DNA of 64,000 bases. It comes from Octopus vulgaris. Lineage: Eukaryota. The position numbers were made by a program, and so were the translations under genes. Within the stretch, counting starts at the first letter, position 1. Each line of letters begins with the position of its first letter. This document shows positions 4,135 to 50,905 of this stretch, piece by piece. The stretch lies in the NCBI GenBank assembly GCA_951406725.2, contig OX597815.1, positions 147,870,001 through 147,934,000 on the forward strand, given 5' to 3'. Under the pieces are notes generated by a model, which was given only the letters and a program-made list of their open reading frames with translations, was not told the DNA's origin and searched no databases.

Positions 4135-6815
4135 TGTTTTTTTTTTCTTGTTCCAGCTCAGAGCTGCGGCCATGCTGATGCACCGCCGTTTTGTGCTACA
4201 TTGTTATTACGAAGAACCTCCTCTAATATGTGGCACTTGGTGAAGAATGGAGTTTGATATAGCTACTCTCATTTGCACCTCTTGCCGTGAGGTAGGTTCA
4301 TCTGGGACTCTCGACAGGAAGAAGTCCAGCTTTGATTTAAAAACCGCTACATCTACTTTGTGCAAGTTCTTTTGGGAGAATATTAAAATGCTGTGGGCCC
4401 TTGAAACCCAGGCTGTTGCAGAAGCTGGTCCTGAAGCGTGATGACATTGCTGGGATCTTTGGCACTATGAAGTGTCATCCCGTTCTAGCATTGGTGTAGC
4501 GTTCAATGCCAAAATTTGGTACAATTCCATCCATGATCTTCCTGACATATATTACTGCACACCTCTCCCGTCTTCTCTCCAAGGAGTGGAGTCTTAGCTG
4601 TTTCAACCTTTCCCAGTTGCTGAGCTGTTGCAAAGAGACGATTTTCTTTGTGAATCTTCTCTGGATTGCTTCAAGGTCCGCTGTTAATTTTACACCGGTG
4701 GGTGACCATAGCTGTGAGCAGTAATCCAGGTGGCTGAGGACGAATGTCTGCCAGAAGACCATCATGGTTTCCTTATCTCTGGTTCTGAATGTTCTTAGGA
4801 CCCATCCAGCCAGTCGTCAGCATTTTGTCGCCATCCTGTAAAGAGGTATCATCATTCATGTCGATACCCAGGTCCCTCACAAACTTAGGCTCTGAGATTG
4901 AAATTCCCTGTGGACCGGTGTATCCTGTAAGTTTAATATTCAGTTTTGGATGCTGGTAGCGCAGGGCCTGGAATTTTTCAGCATTAAACTGCATATTATT
5001 ATCCTCAGCCCATCTGTAGATTGAGTCCAACTTCTGCTGCAGGTGTGCAACATCGCTGGGGTTCTGTATTTTCTGCGAGACTTTCGTATCGTCTGCATAG
5101 CTTGCCAGAGTGGCTATCCAGGCATTTTAGGGCATATCTGAGAGGGCCACTATAAAAAGCAGTGGTCTCAAGACAGTGCCCTGTGGAACACCGCTCACTA
5201 TTTGTGTGTTCATAGAGGTGGCTCCATTAACGAATACTGCCTGACTCCTATCTTTCAGGAAATCATGTAACCACGCTCCAAGTTTTCCAGCTATGCCGAG
5301 GTCACCCAGTTTGTGGCATATAATAACATGATCCACCTTGTCAAAAGCTTTTGCAAAATCAAGGTAGATTACGTCCACATTCGATTTGTTGAGTAACTGC
5401 CTCAAGACCCAGTCATAATGTTGTCAGAGCTGGGTCAGGCAGTTGCTACTTGGTCGAAAAGCATGCTGGGTACCACTCAGCAAGTTATTTTCCTCAAGGA
5501 AGGCGATTAGTTTCTTTCTGACTATCCGTTCCATGACTTTGCTGATGTGTGATGTCAGAGAGGTAGGCCTATAGTTATTGGCATTTGCTCTACTTCCCCC
5601 TTTATGTATTGGGCATATTATTCCCTCCTTCAGCTTGCTTGGCAGTTTGCCATTCGCAAGAAAGCTCTGGAAGAGAATCTTGAGGGATATTGCCAGGGCA
5701 TGCTTAAACGCTTTGAGGAGGATTGCTGGGAAACCATCTGGACCAGCAGTTGAGTTTGTGTCCACTTCATCTATGGCTTGTAGGACATCTTCGCTAACGT
5801 CAATACATTCTATAGTAACCGCCTCGCTGCTTATAGGTGAGGCGGCAAAGAAGTCCACTGGTTCGTTCACTTGTCTGTGTTCCAACGGGGTGGTAAAGAC
5901 ACTTTTGAACTGGTCATTCAGCATCTCACTGATCTTAGTTCGACTGTCTGTGAGGGAGCCATCCTTTTAGAGAAGGGGTCCTATCTTGTAGTGCACTGAG
6001 ACTGTTTCTTTCGCGTAATGAAAGAAGGCCTTTGGGTTTGATTTAATGTTTTTTATAACCCAGGCTTCTTTGTCTGCTGTCTCCCTCACATAGGATTGTT
6101 GCAGCCTTTTTTCGATCTGCATTATTGTTGTTTTTAGGCGGGATGTTTCGCTACTTTTGGGATGTTGGTTGAGATGATTTGCTACCTTCGTCCGTCGTCT
6201 CATGAGGATCTTCCTGTCTCTTGGAATCTTGCTCCTATTTGTTTTGGCCTTGGGACATATTTCTGGCATACGGCTTGCACAGAAGACATGAAACATTCTA
6301 ATTTCATGCCAATGTCTGGTGTGGAGAAACATTCCGGCCAGTCCTCTCTGTGGATCTTTTTTGGATCAATTTCCAATCTGCTTTGTGGAAGTTCAGATTG
6401 GAGAGATTTCGGGTGCTTCATTTAGGCTGTATGTCTTTGGTTACTGTTGGCCCAAACATAGACAGCTCTATTATGTTGTGATCCGAAACTGATGTCGGTG
6501 TCACTTTCACATCATGAATGATGTCCATATTGTTCGTGAAGCAGAGATCCAGAATGTTATTCGCCCCAGTCAGTTTGAGTACAACTTGCTCCATGAATAA
6601 GGCGTTGGTGAGGTTGAACAGGGACTCCACCTGTACTTGATTGCAATGATTCATTCCTGAAAGTATGAGACCTTCGGGCCATTTGACGTTGGGGAAGTTG
6701 AAATCACTCATACGAAATATGGTCACGTGGTGTTCCAGATTCATGAGGATTTCTTTAATTCTTGTGAGGCAATCTTCAAACTTGCCAATGTGATTTGGGG
6801 CATCCGGTGGGCAAT
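4135..6815 (-). mobile_element. 5'-truncated CR1/L2-group (Jockey superfamily) LINE, decayed APE endonuclease plus RT
   Basis: SDFNFPNVKW, NILDLCFTN, SDHNII (APE). AGPDG, NYRPTSLTSHISKVMERIV, DVIYLDFAKAFDKVDH, SGVPQGTVL, YADD (5088-5099), LDYCSQLWSP. Stem-loop plus A-rich 3' tail at ~4135-4190. Confidence 0.92.
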
Positions 6816-16065: not shown

Positions 16066-17515
16066 ATCTCGCGAAGAATTTCACCCATTTTTATATAATG
16101 TATATACTATAAAAAAAGAAATTGTTTAAATTATGAATTATTTGCAACTCCACTCCCTGCTCCCGATTGTTTCTATTTAGAAATTCAAATATTGGAGAAC
16201 CGGAGAAGGTCATTGCTGGTATTTGTTCAAAGTGATTTAAAACAAATACGGAGATGTATTTGTATAGCAAGAAACTAGTTATAAGATGATGTGCTGAAGC
16301 AAAAACAATTGCAGTGTACATGTTTCTAAGCCATTCAATAACTGACAGAAACCGTTAGTTTTACGGCATTTCTTAAGTACAGAGGCCCCAATGCATATAT
16401 GTAACGAGATGAAGGGGTTAGTTTTAGAGTTAGTTTTTAGGGTTAAGTTTAGGGCTACTTTTAGGGTTGTTAATGTGTCCTTGCACGTCAACACAGCGTA
16501 CATTTACAAAGTTTTGTACGTAACACCTGCTTTTAAGTAGTACCGATAAGGGAGTTCTGTGTTTAAGAAGAACGAGTTTTATTTCATTATTAAAATTTCA
16601 TCTGTGTCAAAACATTTTTTCGCACTGAAACCGTGACCTGGTCACTGACAAAAATTCGCAAGAGTAATGAACCTCGAAATTTCATCAGTGATCAGCAAAT
16701 ACACACACATACACACAGCATACACCCACGCACACAAATATTCATTACCTTTCAATTGTGTGTATGTGTACCTATGTGTACCTGTGTCACAGTTTAAATC
16801 GCTTGTGCAATTTGCTTGTGTATATATTGGCTTAATGGTATAGAGTGTTTGGAATCGGAGAATAAGGTTCAAGTTTCGAGTACTTGTGGGTAGGTTTTTT
16901 TCTCCTCGTCTTCTAATAGTAATTACTATTTTCTTGGCTCTTCTTACAGCTAACCCGCGTTCAAAAATTATACAGGTACTATAGTAAATAGTAAATAACG
17001 TATACAGTAATAGAACAATAAATAATATATTACGTATACAATAATAGAATAAAGTGTCGCTTTTTCAAATAGCGAATGAAATCTTAAAAGGGAAGGCAAG
17101 AGTCTTTGCAATTGAGAATGAAATAGTCCGCAGTGAATTCAATGAATATTTAAATTTGTGAATTCGACGCAGAGAATATTTAAATTTAAAGAAATTCGAG
17201 TTTAAAACTTCAAGAAACTTGAGGAATCGATATTATAGGAAATTTCTTAGAACATGGATTTATAAGAATATTTCCAGATAGTCAATCCTTTAATAATTGC
17301 TTTCTATTTGTAATTTTAGTAGTTGTTACAAAATTAATAAGCAGGGGCCTCCGTTATAGTATATATATATATATATATATATATTATATTGAGGGTACTA
17401 CTATTCGTAGATACCAACACGCTAAGAGGGACCAATGCGGTCAAAACTACTAAAAATAAACAAAATTTTACCGAATGCAAAACTTCAAAACACATCATTT
17501 TAAAAAAAGAATTCA

Positions 17516-17579
17516 GTTACATATCACATGTGATTTCGCATTTAATGCAGAATATGCATTTCATGTTCATCAGTGCAAC
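17516..17579 (-). ncRNA. Type I hammerhead ribozyme (core intact)
   Basis: Minus strand: GUUGCA CUGAUGA ACAUGAAAUGCAUAUUCUGCAUUAAAUGC GAAA UCACAUGUGA UA UGUAAC. Stem I GUUGCA/UGUAAC, palindromic stem III, AUA cleavage triplet; base of stem II imperfect. Confidence 0.7.
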
Positions 17580-18014
17580 AAACTCAAGAAATATAAGAGA
17601 AAAACATTACATTACAAGCTCGATAGCCAACCGTAGAATTCGTCGTAGCATGTACGAATGTTTATCTTTACATATCTATGAAAATGGCGGGCTTATTCGC
17701 AATGCATTTCGGTAACAAATTGTCTAGTCGGAATAAAAATTCAGTATTGAACTATTCCGGTGAAAAATATGAATTAACAATTGAGGATAAAATCTTTAAA
17801 AGAAATTATCAGTAGTCAGCGTGAAAAACCTCGTAAGAGAAAAAATCCGTAAATTCTTCCTCTTTGAAAATATTCATTTATATTATATTGAGGGTACTAC
17901 TATTCGTAGATACCAACACGCTAAGAGGGACCATTGCGGTCAAAACTACTAAAAATAAACAAAATTTTACCGAATGCAAAACTTCAAAACGCATCATTTT
18001 AAAAAAAGAATTCA

Positions 18015-18078
18015 GTTACATATCACATGTGATTTTGCATTTAATGCAGAATATGCATTTCATGTTCATCAGTGCAAC
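18015..18078 (-). ncRNA. Second hammerhead copy, core mutated (GAAA to AAAA)
   Basis: Identical to 17516-17579 except TTTCGC becomes TTTTGC on the + strand (CpG-type transition). Confidence 0.6.
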
Positions 18079-18463
18079 AAACTCAATACCATTGTATTGA
18101 AACGCGTTTAATGATGGTGGCCTCCCCAAGACAAAGGAAACGTTGTGTTTTGAACATCACTTAAAGCTTTTAAAACCGTCTCTCTCTCTCTTTTTCCCAT
18201 CCTTGCCCTTTGTTACTCTTTCTTTTTCCTCTTCTTCCCCCTCTCTTTTCCTTTTTTTTGTGTCCTCTTTGAGTTATATTTAGAATACAAAATGACTGTC
18301 TCCGCTTTCCTTCCAAACACTCAATTTTGGGGAACTCATTTTATTATTAAATATAATTGTGCATGAAAAAATATTACTACTATATTTCAAATATAAAAAA
18401 ATATATATACTCGCAGCTAGAACATTCCAATGCTACACACACACACACATAAATACCTCCCCA

Positions 18464-18849: not shown

Positions 18850-19540
18850 TACACGCCTGAATATTTATAAATATGAGAATTATGTTTCCAAAATTCGAGT
18901 TATATTTAGAATTCAATCCGTCACTTTATTTACATTTGACGGATATTTGTTCCCATCTCTTTTGTTGTTAACACAATGTTTCGGCTGTTAACACACCGTC
19001 CTTTTATCCGTCCTCTATGTTTCAATACACAGTGTTTGTGTGCTCCTAGGCCTAAATTGTAAGGTATATTAGTGTAGAGGTTGGTGATTTCGAAACGTGT
19101 AAGTATCGTACCTTCCTCGATAGTGGGAAGGATGTGTTGGATGAAATCTATGTCTTCTCGTACATAACTGGGTATTAAATGGTACTTAGGTTTTATGAGT
19201 ATATCCAAAAAAATGACTTGTTGTGCTGGTGCTTGAGGTCCAGCAACCCTTGGTCTTAGTTTGAGGTCAGCAGACCTTAGTATTTTTTAGGTATTGGTTC
19301 TTCTGCTTATTTATGGCACTTAGTAATTCGGAGCTTCTGTGTATTTTAGGCAATCCGTAAAAATTGCTTTGTTTCATTACAGAGTTGCATATATAATATT
19401 GTTCCTTCTCTGTGAAGGAATCTTGCAATTCAATTATTAATCTTGTGATTTTATTCATTATTGCTTTTTTGTGGGGTGACTTGGTTTTTCCTTGTAGTAG
19501 GTTTGGTTTGTTAACAATTCTAATGTTTTATCTTTATAGT
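18850..19540 (-). mobile_element. Penelope-like element RT fragment
   Basis: SNFYGLPKIHRS, LRPRVAGPQAP, LDILIKP...IPSYVREDIDFI, TILTRFEITNLYTNIPYNLGL (PLE RT motifs), joined to non-coding sequence by a deletion near 19000. Confidence 0.82.
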
Positions 19541-19549
19541 AGACGCCAA

Positions 19550-19760
19550 CCGAAAATCTTACGAAAAAACAACAAGGGCTGAATTCAAATTGGAGAATGA
19601 ATCAGGATTCTTAATTAAAGAATGTAACGAGAGGAAATGTGGAACATGGAACAACAACAGCAACTTTAAGTACATAAAAAGTGGTTCCCACATAAAATTC
19701 GGCAGTGGATCGCTTTTGAAAATAAATGCAGATATGAACTGCAAAACGCAAAAAACACAC
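19550..19760 (+). mobile_element. PLE linker fragment in inverted orientation
   Basis: TRAEFK...IKECNERKCGTW...IKSGSHIKF...INADMNCKTQ resembles the Cys-rich linker preceding the PLE GIY-YIG domain. Confidence 0.55.
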
Positions 19761-26294: not shown

Positions 26295-26805
26295 TATATA
26301 TATAAAACTGTAGTTGTGTGAGTGTCTGTCCCCTTCGATTTAGATTCCTAACTACTCCCACATTTTGCGGTGCAGTTTAGCCAAATTCGGGTACCTTATA
26401 GACGTGATTCATATCGAGCCCGTCTAAGTATTAGCGCGCGTCTACGATGAGTCTACGATTTTAAAAATAATTTAACATCATTTTTTATTCCATTTTAATG
26501 CATAATTTTTCGTGTGTCGATGGCGGCGGAGTTGGCGTCCTTGGTCACACCTGCACCTGTTTGCTTCTCCCCCTCCTTCCCTCCCTCGTGAAGCTGTGGG
26601 GAAGGGAGTGTAAGGAAATCAACGTCGTAAAGCGTTGTCAAGGAGACCAGCGTTCTTTTAGAACAACGACTTCATGGCTTGAAGACACCAAAACAGAAAT
26701 GGCTAAGAAAACCCGAATTGGCATCTATAAGGGAAGTAACTCTCTAAAAATGCTTATATAGTTATATCCCTTACAAACCCGAGAAACGCCGGGCGATACT
26801 GCTAG
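26295..26805 (+). mobile_element. Non-autonomous Helitron, copy 2 (head-to-tail)
   Basis: Colinear with copy 1, with scattered substitutions and indels; ends CCCGAGAAACGCCGGGCGATACTGCTAG|T. Confidence 0.8.
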
Positions 26806-26829
26806 TATATATATATATACTGATACATC

Positions 26830-28639
26830 TATATCCATACCATCAACCACCTATGCAAATCATAAGGACCACACACCCACTACCAACAAGAAAATCATAC
26901 ACACACAGCTCCATACAAGAACTACCCACATTGTTACCACTGAACAACTTAGAACAATGCAAACATCAAACTTCCCTTACCTCAACATTCCTGTTAAATG
27001 CACGTGGCATCAACCCATCAATTATTGCCCAAAAATGGAAGATCCCATATATAGAGAGTTGGCTTGCCGAAACGGCACATTGTTTCTCTTTCTTTATCCT
27101 TACCGAGACTCACCTGAACAATACCCATATGGACGCCGAGGTGAAAATAAAATATTTCACCATTGTTCGTGCGGATCGCACATACCAAAATAATGGAGGG
27201 ACAGCCATCTTTATCCGTGACTCCTTCTCACTTGATGCCAAGGACATAATCATTGTTGGTATTTACAGGCCTCCCCAAACACCTCTAAAGTGCTTTGAAG
27301 AGTGCCTTAGCAAAGTCAAGTCCTTCCTTCGGAAGTACAACTCCGGAAACATACTAGTGATGGGTGATTTTAACCTCCGTCGTGTGAACTGGCCCACAAA
27401 TACCCTGTAGTCAGACAAATGCTCTACATCAGAGAGAGCAGCAGCAGAACTGCTCTTTAATCTAATGGATGAATACTTCCTGACTCAGCTAGTGCTCGAA
27501 CCAACGAGACAGAATAAAACGATCTTGGATCTGGTATTGACCAATCACTCTAGCTTCGTTCACAGTATTTCAGTTGAAAAAACTCTCCTCTCAGACCACG
27601 ACATGGTACTCTGCAATTTCAATTCCCGACATATAAAAACCAAACCAGCCAATCCCACTCCATGGCACTCATTTGACAACATAAACCTCCACAAAGTGGA
27701 CTGGGGTGCAATCAGAAAGGATCTGTCTTTCATCGACTGGTCTTTTACTCTCAATTCCACTCATATTGAGACCGTATGGCAGCACTTTGAAAACATTGTA
27801 ACCTATACATGCTCTAAACATGCTCCCACGAAATCTACTAACACAAGCAGAAACCGGATCCCTAAAAAGAAAAAAAACACTCATCAGGCGCATCAAAAGA
27901 CTCAACAAAAAAACCAACCAATTAAAATATTCCCACATACAACATCCTCATTCAACAACAATGAAAAGGCTAGAGCTGGAAAAACTTCATCTGCAGAACG
28001 ACGTGAAAACCGCCATTGAAAATCAAATCGAACAGTGGGTAATAAAAAAACATCTGCAGAACGACGTGAAAACCGCCATTGAAAATCAAATCGAACAGTG
28101 GGTAATAAAAAAACATCAAACAGAACCCAAAAGAGTTCTATTCCTATGCAAATAAGCATAGAACCACTGTCTCACCCATTGGGCCATTGATTAATGATAA
28201 CGGCATTCCCCAACACGATGCTAAAGAAATGGCAGAAATACTGCAGAACATACCGCCAACTTTGAACATAAGCTTCCACGTTCATCCAAGACTGGGACCA
28301 CGGGCCATACGTCCCCTGCATAATTCAAGATCACAGAATACATGTACACTACAACATAATTTCTTTTCCTCAACAGGACCTGCCCTATTCAACATTGTCC
28401 CGAAAGAGATCAAAAAGGAACAGGATCCCATCAACTTTAAACGGAGTCTGGATAGATTCCTTCAAGGAATACCAGATAAGCCACCCATAATTGGATACAA
28501 TTCACCCAACAAAAACTCAGTACTTGAATGGACCATAAACAAAACTTGACTTAAACAGGATTCAAATAATCCTATCAGGTGGTGCTATTAAGTTAGACAT
28601 GGCATGGACCAATCATTGGTCGAAATATATCTAAGTTTA

Positions 28640-28640: not shown

Positions 28641-32330
<3,690 letters not shown>

Positions 32331-40778: not shown

Positions 40779-40866
<88 letters not shown>

Positions 40867-40949
40867 AGAGACAAAACCACTATTTTGCAAAACAAACAAG
40901 GAAAGACTTAATCAATACATAAAATTTTAATAAAAAGTCAAAAAAACCG

Positions 40950-40992
40950 CCACTACAATTGTTTCTTGTCCTAATCGACAATCTTCAGGTGG
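40950..40992 (-). ncRNA. Minimal type I hammerhead ribozyme (left arm)
   Basis: Reverse complement of 44283-44325. Confidence 0.8.
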
Positions 40993-43900
40993 AATTCCAA
41001 TCTAAAATATCAATATTTTAAAATATAAAAATAATAATTTTAAAATAATTAAAGTATTAATGAAAAAATATAAATATATAATCTATATATAACCTATATA
41101 TAATCCATATATAATCAATATATAAACAATATATAAACTAAAATAAACCTTTCAACAATTAAATATAAAATATAAAATATAAAACAAAACAAAAAATAAA
41201 CTATATATACACCCATACACATATAACTAATTATATATAACCATATCTAAATACATACATTAAATAACACACCTATATATATATATCCCTATACCTACAC
41301 ATAAAAACGTCTAGGCAACAATAAATAAATAAAATAGCCAAATACTTCAACACAATACTTATTCATACTCCCTCACACACACATACAACCCACATTCCCG
41401 CTCTAGAAACGGACATCATTTAAAATTATGAATGGAGAAATGGAATAAATGGAATTAAAAATTATATTCACTTGGTAAAACGAACATTACTTAAAAATTA
41501 TGAATGAAACAATGCAATAAAACAACAGACATCGCAAATAGACACAAATTACTACGAATTCCTTAATAAAACTACCATGACAAACCAAAACTCATAAAAA
41601 CATATAATGATAAAATCTCCCTTTACTAAACTCTATAACATACCTATATAGCAATCCCCCTAACCTAAACATTCACACACAAATACACACACGTAAACCA
41701 CACACCCACGACATATACAAATACCCACCTCACTCACACATACCTATACATACATATAAACCTCAACATATACTCCAAAAACCCACTCAACCCCACACAG
41801 ACAAATAAACACATACATCCCCAAACCTATATAGCAAACCCATAAACACATTCACACACAAATATACATACGTAAAACACACACCATATACATATACATA
41901 CTCACTAAACTCGATATATACAACAATATTAACACACCCACACTCATACAGATAAATAAATTACACAACCAAAATACGCACACACTCACACACAATCCCA
42001 CATACATAAACACTCCAAATAAAAACAACATTATTACACATAATACGATATATAATATACATCGTAAGTAACCAGAATATCAAAAATAACAATATGACAT
42101 AAGGAGAAATAATATACATACTTTCAAGTCAGTTTCAAATTATGAAGTGAAATTAAATTCTAAGCCGTTAAAAAACATCAAACCAAAATTACGTTACCAT
42201 AGGAACATAACTTATGTATAAAAAGAATACGCGCTATGGAAGCAAACGTCACTTAAAATTATGAATGGAGAAATAGAATAAATGGAATTAAGAATTATAT
42301 TCACGCGGTAAACTAACATTATTTTAAAAAATTATGAATGGATTCTTTAATAAAACTACCATGATAAATTAAAACTCATAAAAACATAAATGATAAAACC
42401 TCCCTTTACTAAACCCTATAACATACTTATATAGCAATCCCTTTAACCTATACATTCACACACAAATACATGAGTTTTGGTTTATCATGGTAGTTTTATT
42501 AAGGAATTCGTAGTAATTTGTGTCTATTTACGATGTTTGTTGTTTTATTGCATTGTTTCATTCATAATTTTTGAGTGGTGTTCGTTTTGCCACGTGAATA
42601 TTGTTTTTAATTCCATTTATTCCATTTCTCCATTCATAATTTTAAAAGATGTTCGTTTCCAGAGCGGGAATACTTTTTATACATATGTTAGGTTCCTTGG
42701 TAACGTAATTTTGTTTGGTGTATATGTTGAGGCTTATATGTACTTGTGGGTGTGTGTGAGTGGGTGGGTGTTTGTATTTGTTATGGGTGTGTGGTTTACG
42801 TGTGTGTATTTGTGTGTGAATGTATAGGTTAAAGGGATTGCTATATAAGTATGTTATAGGGTTTAGTAAAGGGAGGTTTTATCATTTATGTTTTTATGAG
42901 TTTTAATTTATCATGGTAGTTTTATTAAAGAATCCATTCATAATTTTTTAAAATAATGTTAGTTTACCGCGTGAATATAATTCTTAATTCCATTTATTCT
43001 ATTTCTCCATTCATAATTTTAAGTGACGTTTGCTTCCATAGCGCGTATTCTTTTTATACATAAGTTATGTTCCTATGGTAACGTAATTTTGGTTTGATGT
43101 TTTTTAACGGCTTAGAATTTAATTTCACTTCATAATTTGAAACTGACTTGAAAGTATGTATATTATTTCTCCTTATGTCATATTGTTATTTTTGATATTC
43201 TGGTTACTTACGATGTATTTTATATATCGTATTATGTGTAATAATGTTGTTTTTATTTGGAGTGTTTATGTATGTGGGATTGTGTGTGAGTGTGTGCGTA
43301 TTTTGGTTGTGTAATTTATTTATCTGTATGAGTGTGGGTGTGTTAATATTGTTGTATATATCGAGTTTAGTGAGTATGTATATGTATATGGTGTGTGTTT
43401 TACGTATGTATATTTGTGTGTGAATGTGTTTATGGGTTTGCTATATAGGTTTGGGGATGTATGTGTTTATTTGTCTGTGTGGGGTTGAGTGGGTTTTTGG
43501 AGTATATGTTGAGGTTTATATGTATGTATAGGTATGTGTGAGTGAGGTGGGTATTTGTATATGTCGTGGGTGTGTGGTTTACGTGTGTGTATTTGTGTGT
43601 GAATGTTTAGGTTAGGGGGATTGCTATATAGGTATGTTATAGAGTTTAGTAAAGGGAGATTTTGTCATTTATAGGTTTTTTATGAGTTTTGGTTTGTCAT
43701 GGTAGTTTTATTAAGGAATTCGTAGTAATGTGTGTCTATTTGCGATGTCTGTTGTTTTATTGCATTGTTTCATTCATAATTTTTAAGTAATGTTCGTTTT
43801 ACCAAGTGAATATAATTTTTAATTCCATTTATTCCATTTCTCCATTCATAATTTTAAATGATGTCCGTTTCTAGAGCGGGAATGTGGGTTGTATGTGTGT

Positions 43901-44282
43901 GTGAGGGAGTATGAATAAGTATTGTGTTGAAGTATTTGGCTATTTTATTTATTTATCGTTGCCTAGAAGCTTTTATGTGTATGTATAGGGATATATATAT
44001 AGGTGTGTGATTTAGTGTATGTTTTTAGATATGGTTATATATAATTAGTTATATGTGTATGGGTGTATATATAGTTTATTTTTTGTTTTGTTTTATATTT
44101 TATATTTTATATTTAATTGTTGAAAGGTTTATTTTAGTTTATATATTGTTTATATATTGATTATATATGGATTATATATAGGTTATATATAGATTATATA
44201 TTTATATTTTTTCATTAATACTTTAATTATTTAAAAATTATTATTTTTATATTTTAAAATATTGATATTTTAGATTGGAAGT

Positions 44283-44325
44283 CCACCTGAAGATTGTCGA
44301 TTAGGACAAGAAACAATTGTAGTGG
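44283..44325 (+). ncRNA. Minimal type I hammerhead ribozyme (right arm)
   Basis: CCAC CUGAAGA UUGUC GAUUAG GACAA GAAA CAAUUG UA GUGG. Stem I CCAC/GUGG, stem II UUGUC/GACAA, palindromic ACAAUUGU stem III, GUA triplet. Confidence 0.82.
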
Positions 44326-44500
44326 CGGTTTTTTTGACTTTTTATTAAAATTTTATGTATTGATTAAGTCTTTCCTTGTTTGTTTTGCAAAATAGTGGTT
44401 TTGTCTCTAATAATATTATATAATATTTTACTATAAAATTGGATTTAATCCTAAATCTGTTTTTTTCCCTGTAAATTTGGATTTATTCCCTAATATTTAT

Positions 44501-44596
<96 letters not shown>

Positions 44597-45662: not shown

Positions 45663-46180
45663 TCACTGAATGAAGAGTGACTTTGCTTACCTTACTACGG
45701 TTTGGACGCGTTTTCTTCCCGGTAAGAGTTTTGCTGTGTTGTTAATATTACTTCGTACCATCTGGAACTTGTTGAATATTACTACTGAAAACTTGTTTTT
45801 GAACGTTGTTGTTGAACCGTCTTGTTCCCCGGTTCTACCGGGGAATAATTGGATAATTCTTTACTGTTGAACTGTTAGCCATTGTGGCTTTTTATCTACG
45901 TGACTGTATATAGTCTTGCCAGACTATTTTCGTGCCCCTCCCCCGAATGGGGGTGGGAATTAAACTTAATTTTTGAACTGCTTTATACCACTCATTGAAC
46001 TGCTTTGGAAGAAAAAAATTTATAGGTTTCCCAGTTTTTTGGAAACCAATATTTGTATTTTTTGTGTTGTCTATTACTAATTTCAACAGAATAACGTCTG
46101 TTGAGATTGTTCATGAATAAAGTGCTCTTGAGGAGAGCAATGTTGATAACTGTAGTAAAAAATTTTCTGCGGTAGCCGCA

Positions 46181-47227
46181 GTGGCAACCGAGAACATTGA
46201 TATCAATGTCAATCACCTCGTCGAGCTATTTAAAAGAAGGAAAGAGGAGGGTGGTGATGTTAAAATATCGCCCTCCGCCAGTATCGTGAAGACCGAGAAG
46301 CGGACCGTAGTGTTTAAAACCTTCTGTCCACAAAGCAGAAGATTCAAACACTTTGAAAAGAATACTATCGAGAAATGCTTGTCCCCGATTTGGAAGGACA
46401 TTGTGTACGTCGCCAGGGGACGGGCATATGGCACTGTGGAGTTCCGCTTCTCGGGGGAAGAGATGGCCCGCGGGCATTCTGTGAATCCCCTAAAAACCAA
46501 GGAGGTGGTGCTCCTGCCAACCTATAGGGGACGCAGGACGTCCCGGGTAAGGATTGCAGTAGCACCGCCGGAAGTAGATCCTGTAGAGGTAGTGGCCGCC
46601 CTGTTATATAAAAGGACGGACAAAATTATTAAAATATTACAGGTAACATGCTCTGCCCCTCAATATTGGCTTGGGCGGGACATTAATGTAATAATTCAAG
46701 GAACACAGAACGACCTGCAGGTCCTTCCTGAGAGGGTGCTCGTGGGCGAGAATGTGGCTCTCAGGGTACAGGTCGAAGGCAAAAAGGGCCACATTCGTGT
46801 AGACTGTCCAGACAAGCAAAAGAAACCGCAGACACCGGGCCCCTCAGATAATAAAAAAATCCCTACCTTTGCAAACCCACCTACCCCTACAAAAACAAAA
46901 AGTCCCACTCCTGATGTTACGGTGCCAACCCAAAAACAAACTGACAAAAAAAGCCAGTCCTTGCACACACAAACCTCTACATTATTAAAACTTCCCACCC
47001 CCTTAAAAACTGCGTTGCCTACTGAACAAAATATTGCTACCCCAGACGATACCATGGAGGTATCAGAGGAGGGATTTACAACTGTTCGTAAGAGAACTCG
47101 TGCATCATCCCCGTCCACATCCCCTACAAAAAATAATAAAAACAAAGACACACCACAGGCACCAAAAAAATCCCTCCCAACTGCCCCCCTCCCTCCAATA
47201 AAGACGAAAAAAATGAACTTATATTAA
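46181..47227 (+). CDS. LINE ORF1 (gag-like nucleic-acid-binding protein); start and end uncertain, zinc knuckle partly deleted
   Basis: 348-aa ORF directly upstream of ORF2. RRM-like N-half, VQVEG|KKGHIRVDCP (knuckle missing its CX2C), Pro/Thr-rich linker, EEGFTTVRKR motif. Confidence 0.75.
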   Translation: MATENIDINVNHLVELFKRRKEEGGDVKISPSASIVKTEKRTVVFKTFCPQSRRFKHFEKNTIEKCLSPIWKDIVYVARGRAYGTVEFRFSGEEMARGHSVNPLKTKEVVLLPTYRGRRTSRVRIAVAPPEVDPVEVVAALLYKRTDKIIKILQVTCSAPQYWLGRDINVIIQGTQNDLQVLPERVLVGENVALRVQVEGKKGHIRVDCPDKQKKPQTPGPSDNKKIPTFANPPTPTKTKSPTPDVTVPTQKQTDKKSQSLHTQTSTLLKLPTPLKTALPTEQNIATPDDTMEVSEEGFTTVRKRTRASSPSTSPTKNNKNKDTPQAPKKSLPTAPLPPIKTKKMNLY

Positions 47228-47500
47228 TTAAATATGATACACGAAACAAATATATAAACGATGCGGTGGTTCCACATCACACAGCAAGACTGTAAAACAA
47301 ACACAAAGTTCTAAATGAAAGATGTGCGTGGATTGAGGAAACAGCGTTCAAACAATTAAAAGACAGACACCCAGAGGCCATCCGGCGTATCCCGAACTTG
47401 CCGGACTATCTGAAGAAGGAGAAGGAAGGGGCCCACAAATGTGTGGTGAGGTCGGCCCCAACCCCTCCAACGAAATGTAAGTAGAACTTTTACTTTTGTA

Positions 47501-50500
47501 ATGGCTTCTCTTAACTTTGGTTGCTTAAATGTGCGTGGTCTGAGTTCGAAGTGGAAGCAGGCTTGTTTCCTCGACGACCTCAGGTCACATGATATACATG
47601 TGATGGTTGCTACAGAGACCAAACTGGACAGCCTACAAACCTTCTCGCCTCTCCTGAATGGCTACGAGAAAATCATGTCTCCTGGCCTGACCGGAGGGCG
47701 AGGGGGTGTAGTGGTACTGATCCGTAATGACTAGGTTCTGCAGACAAGTACAGTCTATGTGGACCCAGAAGGTCGGCTGGTCGTCCTTGATGTGACATAC
47801 AGCAGTAAGGCCTTCAGGTTGATCGTACTCTATGCACCTTGTGCTAGAGGTTTCCAAACTGATTTCTATCGGCGCCTACAGGGTTTTCTCGTGACGTCGA
47901 AGACTTTAGTGGTATTAGGGGACTTTAATGCTATCGTTGACGTACACATCGATAGCGTTGGCTCGATCCATAGGAAAGTAAACTCACGTCTCGTGGATCT
48001 GCTTAAGCGGTTTCCGCTGGCAGATCGTTACAGACTTGACCATCCGAACGTCCCAGAGTGGACCTGGATGAGTGGCGACAGAAGTTTCAAGTCTTATCTA
48101 GACAGGATAGTAATAAGAACTAGAGATAAGTCTAGTTTTAGTTGTCCACAGCTCGTCCAGGTGCCCTATACTGACCATAGAATGGTCAAGTGTAGACTGG
48201 ACATAGATAGCACACTTAAGATAGGAACCAGCTACTGGAAGCTGAATAAGTCTATTTTGACTCGCGAGGCATACCGTAGCCGGATTAAGGAGTTAGTGCA
48301 GAGGGCGTTAACCGGAGCCGTGGTTAACAACCGGTGGTGGTTCGCCCTTAAGAGAGACATTCGATTCGAGGACATTAGATTTAGTAAAAAACTAAGACTA
48401 GATAGGGCTAGAATAGAAGGGCAACTAGTTAAGAACTTAGAGGAGGCGTTGAGGTTGGGCTCTGCATCTCACATTTTAGCGGCGAGAACGGCATTAGACC
48501 GTCATCTCAAAACCAAACATGAGGGATGTAGAGTTCGGGCTAAAGTACGAGCATTGGGTCGTGAGGGAATTAATGTTGCCGGATGGGCCCGTACGATAGA
48601 ATCACAGCGTGACAACGATGCCACAATTGGGTCTCTTTTTTATGAAAACGGATGCACGGTCAAGAAGCGGGACGAGATGTGGGAGGCACTTCACAAGCAC
48701 TTCACCGTGTTGTTCGGGAGGTGCGGGACGCTGGATCATGGTGAGGCCCTTAGGGAATTCCTGTCTGGTGGCCCGCGTCTCTCGGCACGAGAGGCTGAGT
48801 GCTGCGAAGGGCCAATCACATTCGAGGAGGTAATCGAGGTGTTGGGCAAGTGCCCCGGGGAGAAGTCGCCGGGTCTCGATGGTTTGCCCTATGAATTATA
48901 TAAAAGTATGCCAGACTTGTTCGGGCACCTGCTGGCTAGCCTCTACGCCAACTGGCAACAGAATGGGAGAACTCCCAAGTCTGCCAGCCGGAGGTGGTGA
49001 CGTTGATCAGGAAGGACCCGAGCAAGGGGGACGAGATAGGAATCTTCAGGCCTATAACTCTGCTGAGCACAGAGTTAAAGATTCTGGCCTAAGTGCTAGC
49101 AAAAAGTTTGGCGCGGGTCGTGGACAAACTTGTCGGGGAAGCGCAAACGTGCGCTATCCCTGGCAGAGCGATCCACAATAATCTCCACCTTATACGCTAC
49201 TCCTTAGAGAGGGTGGGAAGCTTTCTGTCGCAGGGGGAGCACTGGTACATTTAGACTAGTCTAAAACATTTGATAGGGTCGACCATCGGTACTTGGCGGT
49301 GGTCCTCGGAGAGGCTGGCCTAGGCCCGACCTTTCGAGGTTGGATCGTTGCTTTGTATAGCGACATCGAGTCTGTAGTCAAGGTGAACGGTTTCTTTTTG
49401 AAGCCGTTCAGGATCGAGCGTTCAGTTCGTCAGGGGTGTCCCCTGTCCTCGCTCCCATATGTATTGGCTCTTGAGCCTTTGCTGTGGAAGTTGGAGGCAC
49501 TAGGGGGGGGGGGGGGCGCCGCATGATCTATGGTGTGGAAGAGGAGCTACGGCGTATGCGGATGACACCTCCTTCATTGTGGCAGACGAAGGCCAGCTTC
49601 CAATGGTGGAAGAGGCCATCAAAAGCTACGAGGCGGTAGCAGGAGCAAAGGTTAACAAGGACAAGTCGGTCGGTTTGCAACTCGGCACCTGGAGGGGCAA
49701 GCCGATGCCGTCCAATAACGTCGTGGGGCGTTGGACGGAAGGTCCTGTTAAGCTGCTCGGCATCTGGATTGGTCCAGAACTCCAGATAGAGAAAAATTGG
49801 AGTGAGGTGGCCAGCAAGCTGACCGCTCTAACCCAGACCTGCTCTGGGCGGGCGTTATCCCTGCTAGGGAAAGCGGGGGTGGTGCAGATGTTTATAGCAT
49901 CAGTAATCACCTACCGTCTGACCGTGGTGCCTTGCCCCGATTTGTGGCTGAACAAGTTGGAGAGAATCCTCTTCCGCTTTTTGTGGAAAGGAGAAAAGCC
50001 ACTTGTAAAGCGCTCTGTCTGCTGCTAGAAACCGCTAAAGGGTGGGCTAGGGATGCCTTGGCTGAGGATGCGAAAACTCGCGTTAAGTTGGGGGCGCCTC
50101 TGGCTTTACCTGGATGGAGAGCAGGTGTGGTCACCGCACGTCCGGTTCTACCTTCCCCAGTTAACATCCCTAACGGACATCGGTGCATGGATCAAGCGGA
50201 AACCTAAACTGGGTGAATGGCATTTGGAGTGCCGTCAGGCGCTCCAGCTACTCTCTCGGGCGGGCAACGCCGGCAACAGGGGTTCCACCACGGATTTCTA
50301 TACTGGGTTAGTGGAACTTATGTGAGAAGACGCCTTAGGGGAAGCCCTGGGCTACGATGAAAATCAGTTGGTCAACTTGTTCCGGAGGACGTTCGGGCCG
50401 GGGTATCTGGATAATTACCAGAAATCCCTGGCCTGGCAGTGTTTCCGGGCGGCTTTACCTGTTCGCGACAAGCTGTCAAGGCACGGAAGTGCCGTCTCGC

Positions 50501-50905
50501 CGACATGCCCGCGATGTGAGCAGGATAGGGAAACCGTCTTGCACCTATTCGTGGAGTGTCCGGAGTTATCGGGACTGATAGCTTTTGCCGAACAACTGTT
50601 GTCAATGATGGGAAGAGTACAGCTATCAGCTGAGTCTATCATCAAGATTGTGCCGCCTCCTTTCCTTAATAGGGAAAGAAAGGCTTGTTTTTTCTGTGTA
50701 GTAGCTATACTGAAAGAAACATTATGGAAGACGCGCACGAAAGTTATAGTGACAGGCACTTGTCTCCGGCCAGGGGTTGATTAACTTTTTTAGTTACCAC
50801 CTCAGTAGCAAAATCAGGATGGAGAAGAGGTGCCTGTCACGAGATATGTTTGTGAAAAGATGGAAGCCTGTGGCATGCAAGCTGGGTATGTTTGGCACCA
50901 GGTAA
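47501..50905 (+). pseudogene. LINE ORF2 (APE endonuclease, RT, C-terminal zinc-binding), with stops and frameshifts
   Basis: CLNVRGL, ATETK, DPEGR, LYAP, LGDFN, SYLDRI, TDHRMV, YWKLN, KSPGLDGLPYELY, FRPITLL, KTFDRVDH, SVRQGCPLS, AYADD, GGLGMP, CPRCEQDRETVLHLFVEC. Confidence 0.92.

What the first reader, a model, noticed from the sequence alone, without database searches (positions are those of the whole stretch)
17382..18170. Retrozyme architecture: 499-nt unit bounded by hammerhead-bearing 206-bp direct repeats
Seen: two direct repeats differing at 3 positions, each holding a minus-strand type I hammerhead with palindromic stem III (AUCACAUGUGAU). The interior is non-coding. One copy has lost G12 (GAAA to AAAA) by a CpG-type change. 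Known: retrozymes are non-autonomous retroelements whose transcripts are cut by tandem hammerheads into monomers that circularise; animal ones are thought to be PLE-mobilised. Inference: the ancestral element would release a 499-nt RNA. A decayed PLE RT lies ~700 bp away on the same strand.
Basis: partly seen in the sequence, partly recalled or inferred. Interest (0 to 1): 0.72.

Follow-up and report, generated by a model that had tools for sequence, protein, structure and literature searches.

The report
Young retrozyme with mismatched hammerhead base
This is one copy of a young, protein-less 499-base jumping repeat with hundreds of copies in this animal genome; it carries a predicted self-cutting RNA with an unusual mismatch and is likely pasted into TA repeats by a Penelope-type enzyme, which makes it a known kind of element.

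Summary
The repeats are real: 206 bp, three differences, period 499, each with a minus-strand type I hammerhead; the upstream copy has lost G12. They are not terminal repeats. The locus is a 5'-truncated 1.4-unit tandem of a 499-nt monomer.

The family is young and dispersed (354 intact cores; 562 matches to a tail 24-mer). A 75%-identical older relative supports the hammerhead fold by compensatory changes. 353 of 354 cores lack the canonical G10.1 (A10.1·C11.1 in all 100 listed); relatives mostly have G.

In 158 insertions, 3' ends fall at two fixed sites about 105 nt apart, in (TA)n. Two-armed head-to-head insertions pair one end of each kind (74 AB, 0 AA, 0 BB, 16 other). Arms run through the cut site, and arms and turns share one haplotype. 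This fits Penelope-type priming from both DNA ends on one, likely circular, RNA.

The neighbouring RT belongs to an older family (about 80% identity) and is probably not the mobiliser. The partner was not found; cleavage and circles are untested. The scan reported this mechanism before for other retrozyme families in this genome. Verdict: new member of the animal non-LTR retrozymes.

The parts
17382..18086 (-). Retrozyme insertion: one arm, 1.41 units of the 499-nt monomer, 5'-truncated at monomer position 434, 3' end at site A
17522..18020 (-). 499-nt monomer between the two predicted AUA cut sites; non-coding, 32% GC
17509..17585 (-). Intact type I hammerhead: CUGAUGA from 17573, A10.1 at 17566 opposite C11.1 at 17538, GAAA from 17537, helix III with palindromic CAUG loop, predicted cut between 17522 and 17521
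18008..18084 (-). Upstream hammerhead copy with G12>A at 18036; core predicted inactive
17382..17395 (-). 3' end site A (monomer position about 140-151, after CCTCAAT); its second copy lies at about 17870-17894
17767..17790 (-). 3' end site B (monomer position about 247-254, after CCTCAAT); internal in this copy, terminal in 112 arms elsewhere
17360..17381 (.). (TA)n target tract at the 3' end
18087..18352 (-). 3' non-coding region of an older Penelope-like element, abutting the retrozyme 5' junction; not part of the retrozyme
18997..19753 (-). Decayed Penelope-like RT region (stops and frameshift); best other genomic copies only 75-84% identical

Best explanation
This is a dispersed, young, non-coding 499-nt tandem repeat with a type I hammerhead fold, an animal non-LTR retrozyme, likely inserted into (TA)n by a Penelope-type enzyme that likely copies a circular monomer RNA. 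Shown: the family, its copy structure, its fixed ends and its target. Inferred: (1) transcripts of copies with two hammerheads self-cleave at AUA, probably slowly or as a dimer through the palindromic helix III, because the base of helix II is an A·C mismatch; (2) a host ligase closes the 499-nt monomer; (3) a Penelope-like RT/GIY-YIG protein, probably a dimer, cuts (TA)n and primes from both DNA ends, one at site A and one at site B about 105 nt downstream; (4) each RT runs back along the same RNA, through the ligated cut site and sometimes beyond one turn, and the two cDNAs are joined head to head. If only one end is used, a single truncated arm results, as in this window.
For: Family size: 354 intact cores, 562 tail 24-mers, controls 0; 97-98% identity. 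Structure: RNAalifold recovers helices I-III from 13 young and 13 older copies; 95% of cells pair, against 18-48% for slid controls; three columns change on both sides between the subfamilies. Ends: 234 of 248 terminal 3' ends lie in (TA)n. Of 90 two-armed insertions 74 are AB, 0 AA, 0 BB and 16 have one other end; in a position-defined sample 34 of 39 are AB and none AA or BB. Continuous template: 95 of 117 A arms and 68 of 112 B arms cross the cut site (38 of 54 and 25 of 50 in the sample not chosen on the hammerhead); stops just after the cut are not in excess (22 against 21.4 expected). One template: within-insertion divergence 1.16-1.18% against 2.24% between insertions; 15 of 868 subfamily-site comparisons discordant against 185 expected; 15 private variants shared by two passes against about 0.6 by chance; 7 of 178 turn-specific changes recur, 3 of them at CpG. 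Both arms stop at the same base in 6 of 85 insertions against 0.4 expected. Literature: a purified Penelope protein cuts and extends both strands at AT-rich DNA and starts RT at two internal RNA sites (PMC11167929); mussel and axolotl retrozymes form circles (PMC7229834).
Against: Neither cleavage nor a circle was shown. In PMC11167929 hammerhead mutants did not affect insertion in vitro and unprocessed RNA was the main substrate. In 10.64898/2026.07.22.740005, 8 of 9 retrozyme dimers did not cleave in vitro. G10.1-C11.1 is described as highly conserved (PMC4209133) and is lost here. The isolated hammerhead folds helix III with probability about 0.07, z = -0.9. The core is not significantly more conserved than the rest among young copies (0.53% against 0.72%, p = 0.5). 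L135 and L193 mix subfamily alleles between turns. L020 and L102 share one inversion junction, which a linear read-through template would explain. The covariation is a contrast between two clades, so it counts as few events. No autonomous partner sharing the end motifs was found.
Confidence: 0.62

Rival explanations
1. The same Penelope-type twin priming acts on uncleaved linear read-through or multimeric transcripts, with template jumping regenerating tandems. The hammerhead is weakened by the A10.1 change and is not needed for mobility.
For: Hammerhead cleavage is dispensable in vitro (PMC11167929). The family expanded after losing G10.1. L020 and L102 share a junction while their A arms differ by one unit. 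L135 and L193 have mixed haplotypes. No excess of 5' ends at the cut site is also expected here.
Against: Linear copying only shortens arrays, yet 79 of 229 arms exceed one unit (22 of 104 in the positional sample). Unit-specific differences rarely recur and only 1 of 88 junction types recurs between loci. The core stayed invariant across 25% divergence from the older subfamily while helices covaried. L020 and L102 share no private substitution.
Confidence: 0.28
2. The 499-nt unit is the pseudo-LTR of an autonomous Penelope-like element, and these loci are truncated copies of it rather than a separate non-autonomous element.
For: Xenopus retrozymes match Penelope pseudo-LTRs (10.64898/2026.07.22.740005). 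The insertion geometry is Penelope-like (PMC8557442). A Penelope RT remnant lies on the same strand nearby.
Against: Arms up to 1,219 nt run unit into unit and never into coding sequence in 158 insertions. Penelope ORFs found in flanks lie beyond the 3' end, across TA-rich junctions. The adjacent RT family is about 80% identical and its 3' region is unrelated.
Confidence: 0.07
3. A local duplication or ordinary satellite with a chance hammerhead-like motif.
For: No Rfam match; unremarkable folding z-score.
Against: Hundreds of dispersed copies with fixed ends; invariant core and covarying helices across subfamilies.
Confidence: 0.02

Closest known systems
Metazoan non-LTR retrozymes (Cervera and de la Pena 2020, PMC7229834: mussel 350-390 bp, axolotl Rtz_331/Rtz_353; Li et al. 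2026, 10.64898/2026.07.22.740005)
   Same: Non-coding, low-GC tandem unit with one type I hammerhead per unit; dispersed monomers and short multimers; Penelope-like elements in the same genome. Axolotl HHR_Amex2 also has a mismatch (U·U) at the base of helix II.
   Different: The unit is 499 nt (170-400 nt in the 2020 paper; 51-972 bp in the 2026 survey). Helix II is long and in two parts with an internal loop, and has A·C at its base. Fixed paired 3' ends and head-to-head arms are not described in the parts I read. Expression and circles are not shown here.
EN+ Penelope-like elements (PAc of Anolis, PMC11167929; overview PMC8557442)
   Same: AT-rich or (TA)n targets, 5' truncation, partial tandems, an inverted 5'-truncated arm, two internal RT start sites giving a 'tail' often present at one end only.
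   Different: No ORF. The tail is about 105 nt rather than 30-40 nt. The two ends are strictly one of each kind, whereas PAc showed no strand difference in start site in vitro.
Cave-cricket pDo500 satellite (PMC2837043)
   Same: About 500-bp unit with one hammerhead; single or double hammerhead cleavage proposed.
   Different: pDo500 is a long satellite with G10.1-C11.1 kept or compensated; this family is dispersed as insertions of 0.1-2.4 units per arm.

Membership tests
Metazoan non-LTR retrozyme | Type I hammerhead in each repeat unit | tested here: met
   Core conserved in 59 of 60 copies at G12 and at C3; three-way junction recovered with covariation; no Rfam hit
Metazoan non-LTR retrozyme | Short tandem, low-GC, non-coding unit | tested here: met
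   499 nt, GC 0.32, longest ORF 56 aa; arms up to 2.4 units
Metazoan non-LTR retrozyme | Multi-copy, dispersed, with copies holding two intact hammerheads | tested here: met
   354 cores; 27 arms with two intact motifs among 159 insertions; the window copy has only one
Metazoan non-LTR retrozyme | Self-cleavage of transcripts | not testable with these tools
   Needs an in vitro assay; A10.1·C11.1 makes the result open
Metazoan non-LTR retrozyme | Expressed as monomeric circular RNA | tested here: inconclusive
   No holder on record as RNA; only contigs were available
Canonical type I hammerhead | G10.1-C11.1 pair | tested here: not met
   1 of 354 cores has G10.1; the older subfamily has G10.1 in 12 of 15
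Plant-type LTR retrozyme | True LTRs with type III hammerheads, PBS/PPT and 4-bp TSD | tested here: not met
   Type I fold; repeat length varies with 5' truncation; ends lie in (TA)n
Autonomous EN+ Penelope-like element | RT plus GIY-YIG ORF between pseudo-LTRs | tested here: not met
   No ORF within or 5'-contiguous with any arm examined
Penelope-mobilised non-autonomous element | Penelope insertion footprint: 5' truncation, inverted arm, two 3' ends, microsatellite target | tested here: met
Penelope-mobilised non-autonomous element | Sequence shared with an identified autonomous partner | tested here: inconclusive
   Two young Penelope families and several fragments were checked and none shares the end motifs; the search was not exhaustive

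The most novel reading that the evidence does not exclude
A Penelope-type protein dimer holds two fixed sites about 105 nt apart on one circular ribozyme RNA and copies it by rolling circle from both cut DNA ends, always one site per end. This lineage detuned its hammerhead (G10.1 to A) just before its latest burst, so that circles survive as templates instead of re-cutting. The family would then be a natural series (75%, 89%, 98% identity) linking ribozyme strength to transposition success.
Probability: 0.3. Interest if true: 0.65.

Novelty: new member of a known kind. Interest (0 to 1): 0.4.

Why it matters
How animal retrozymes get back into the genome is proposed in print but not shown (PMC7229834; 10.64898/2026.07.22.740005 lists it as open). 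This family's insertion footprint ties it to Penelope-type priming and names two RNA sites and a target that can be tested in the existing in vitro system. The fixed A10.1·C11.1 change, with G-C relatives as controls, tests whether cleavage is needed for spread. The element type itself is known, and the scan has reported the same footprint for other families in this genome.

Tried and rejected
Rfam scans of the window and of 17300-18250 gave no hammerhead match.

A nested minimal hammerhead (CUGAUGA-ACAU-GAAA-UGCA...) was considered and rejected because helix I cannot form (read from the sequence).

A plus-strand hammerhead in 18087-18170 was rejected: homologues lack the core.

The neighbouring RT as mobiliser was rejected on identity (75-84% against 97-98%) and unrelated 3' ends.

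Partner search: a young Penelope family with an 811-aa frame and a 781-aa family both end in (TA)n but lack the CCTCAAT ends. No chimera was seen in flanks. Part of the output was cut from view.

Expression: no RNA holder listed. Guessed-RNA contig sets cover the monomer, but in X4 and X5 the depth relative to a flanking repeat is no higher than in run X15 (kind not on record), by my sums from the table. This is no evidence either way.

RNA editing: A>G 34 against T>C 32 among within-insertion differences (143 A, 200 T) is no clear excess. L067 has two A>G changes in one hammerhead.

Run-off at the cut site was not seen. Whole-tail similarity to a 559-nt family is weak (score 142 against 119 +/- 8 shuffled, maximum 146); only the terminal motif of site B matches closely.

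Pfam scans of the broken RT were not completed because of stop codons; tblastn was used instead. Look-ups of earlier findings by sequence found nothing.

Full report
OBSERVATION. The two repeats align over 17382-17587 and 17881-18086 with three substitutions and no gap, and the predicted cut sites are 499 nt apart. On the minus strand each copy reads: helix I strand, CUGAUGA, a 29-nt helix II, GAAA (AAAA upstream), helix III with the palindrome AUCACAUGUGAU, the AUA cut triplet, and the complementary helix I strand. Rfam found no hammerhead. The genome is 2.8 Gb in 227 contigs.

FAMILY. A DNA search gave 1,788 first-look candidates, of which 40 were scored, at 95-99% identity. Exact patterns gave 255 matches to a 47-nt core, 354 to a gapped core and 562 to a 24-mer outside the hammerhead; all reversed controls were 0. 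From 186 loci I resolved 159 insertions, 158 after removing one local duplicate; one more near-duplicate remains in L165. The loci are those fetched, a part of each list; insertions within 130 bases of a locus edge were dropped. Median divergence from the family majority is 0.64%, excluding 18 subfamily sites. 5' ends are scattered round the monomer. The 206-bp repeats are therefore the overlap of a 1.41-unit truncated tandem and not LTRs.

HAMMERHEAD. In 60 copies from the first 30 loci the core varies only at the free position 7, apart from one C3 change, one U16.1 change and the window's own G12>A. Subfamily changes keep the fold: one turns a U-A pair of helix III into U·G, and a double insertion adds a pair to helix II. 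An older subfamily was found (1,569 candidates, about 90% identity among copies, about 75% to this family, unit about 500 nt). On 13 young and 13 older copies RNAalifold recovers helices I-III. For my structure 95.3% of cells pair, against 18-48% when partners are slid; three columns change on both sides between the subfamilies. The number of such pairs is no higher than in shuffles (4 against 4.1), and the signal is a two-clade contrast. The base of helix II is A10.1·C11.1 in all 100 listed cores, and only 1 of 354 has G (L370, an 89%-identical intermediate copy). The older subfamily has G10.1 in 12 of 15. The mismatch is thus likely derived and predates the young expansion. G10.1-C11.1 is called highly conserved in PMC4209133 (passages seen). 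Axolotl HHR_Amex2 has a U·U mismatch there, cleaves weakly as a monomer and well as a dimer (PMC7229834, section 15). The isolated motif forms helices I and II, but helix III only with probability about 0.07, so dimer or protein-assisted cleavage is my inference. In this window only the downstream core is intact, so this copy is unlikely to be a source.

INSERTION FOOTPRINT. 234 of 248 terminal 3' ends lie in (TA)n. They fall at site A (monomer position about 140-151) or site B (about 247-254), each just after CCTCAAT. Ninety insertions have two arms head to head: 74 AB, 0 AA, 0 BB and 16 with one other end (11 of these end 12-40 nt short of the A class). In the sample defined by position alone the counts are 34 AB, 0 AA, 0 BB and 5 other. 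The older subfamily, a 559-nt family and a long non-coding family at window 40853-44505 show the same pattern by inspection. This matches Penelope biology: inverted 5'-truncated arms and a tail often at one end only (PMC8557442, passages), and a purified protein that cuts and extends both strands at AT-rich DNA from two internal RNA sites (PMC11167929, parts 1-2 of 4 read). Here the tail is about 105 nt and the asymmetry is strict.

TEMPLATE. 95 of 117 A arms and 68 of 112 B arms cross the cut site (38 of 54 and 25 of 50 in the positional sample), and 5' ends are not enriched after it (22 against 21.4). The template was therefore not a cut linear monomer. Passes within one insertion differ by 1.16% (same arm) and 1.18% (opposite arms), against 2.24% between insertions. 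Subfamily alleles disagree in 15 of 868 comparisons, against 185 expected. Fifteen variants seen in a single insertion are shared by two passes, against about 0.6 by chance; gene conversion could add to this. Turn-specific changes rarely recur (7 of 178) and 1 of 88 junction types recurs between loci. Both arms stop at the same base in 6 of 85 insertions (0.4 expected). Two-armed insertions stop more often near site A (13 against 6.0, p = 0.009, uncorrected, five windows tested). A circle explains these most simply. Against it: the shared junction of L020 and L102, the mixed haplotypes of L135 and L193, the in vitro finding that cleavage is dispensable (PMC11167929), and the failure of 8 of 9 retrozyme dimers to cleave (10.64898/2026.07.22.740005, parts 1-3 of 5 read; supplements closed). 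I put the circle at about 0.6 and uncleaved linear templates at about 0.3.

THE NEIGHBOURING RT. 18997-19753 is a decayed Penelope-like RT region (46% identity over 78 aa to a young intact Penelope protein). Its best other copies are 75-84% identical. 18087-18352 is the same family's 3' region: both occur in the same order at C1:31.647-31.649 Mb. The retrozyme's 5' end is joined to this old copy and its 3' end to (TA)n; the old element does not resume on the other side. Young Penelope families with open frames of about 800 aa exist and also end in (TA)n, but none shares the end motifs, so the partner is unidentified.

EXPRESSION. No listed holder is on record as RNA and the contig data are uninformative.

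LITERATURE AND NOVELTY. Searches found no cephalopod retrozyme and no description of paired fixed ends in retrozymes; subscription papers are not covered. An Octopus vulgaris repeat annotation has no mention of 'ribozyme' or 'hammerhead' in its main text (PMC13282606, passages). PMC7229834 was seen as abstract, passages and sections 14, 15 and 17; PMC2837043 as passages. No supplements were read, and family lists in them could include this element. Hammerhead numbering and the catalytic role of G12 are recalled knowledge. Earlier notes of this scan describe 355-360 and 485-495-nt families in this genome with the same two-end, one-circle reading. I had seen the two ends, took the one-circle framing from those notes, and tested it on this family.

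VERDICT. A real and well-supported new member of the animal non-LTR retrozymes. Its points of interest are a family-wide derived A10.1·C11.1 mismatch and a clear Penelope-type footprint. Interest 0.4.

Noticed in passing
window 40853-44505: A young (about 99%), long non-coding family (914 first-look candidates) inserted head to head in (TA)n, with hammerheads at 44287 (+) and 40988 (-), a T7 run after the cut, and two 3' ends (44426 and 44505) whose motifs loosely resemble sites A and B.
   Followed up: partly
L246:2652-3517; a diverged fragment at window 29410-29610: A 545-563-nt retrozyme family (2,774 pattern matches, arrays of 9 or more units) with its own hammerhead. It shares the site B end motif and follows the same one-of-each end rule.
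   Followed up: partly
L340-L369 (for example L346:1161-1714), L370:1239-1803, L207:1248-1694: Older (about 75%) and intermediate (89-91%) relatives of this family; the older ones and L370 keep G10.1.
   Followed up: partly
monomer positions 320-340 (window about 17681-17701): Excess of 5' truncation points (18 against 6.8 expected; window chosen after seeing the data). It may be an RT pause or a transcript start; unexplained.
   Followed up: no
window 17501-17507: A T7 run directly follows the hammerhead's helix I, as in the 44287 family; it resembles a Pol III terminator.
   Followed up: no
window 17545-17573 (minus strand): Helix II contains a second GAAA and hairpin that mimic a nested minimal hammerhead core, but its helix I cannot form.
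   Followed up: partly
L274-L279 (for example L276:253-3998): A very abundant young Penelope family (about 96% aa identity) with an upstream 495-aa frame overlapping an 811-aa RT/GIY-YIG frame. It ends in (TA)n at two sites about 40 nt apart, and my pattern found no hammerhead in it.
   Followed up: partly
window 46121-50784, 5424-5966, 26748-28019: Broken LINE-type fragments (endonuclease and RT motifs recognised by eye from the ORF list).
   Followed up: no
window 17116-17343: Another high-copy repeat lies just beyond the (TA)n tract (high depth in run X15).
   Followed up: no
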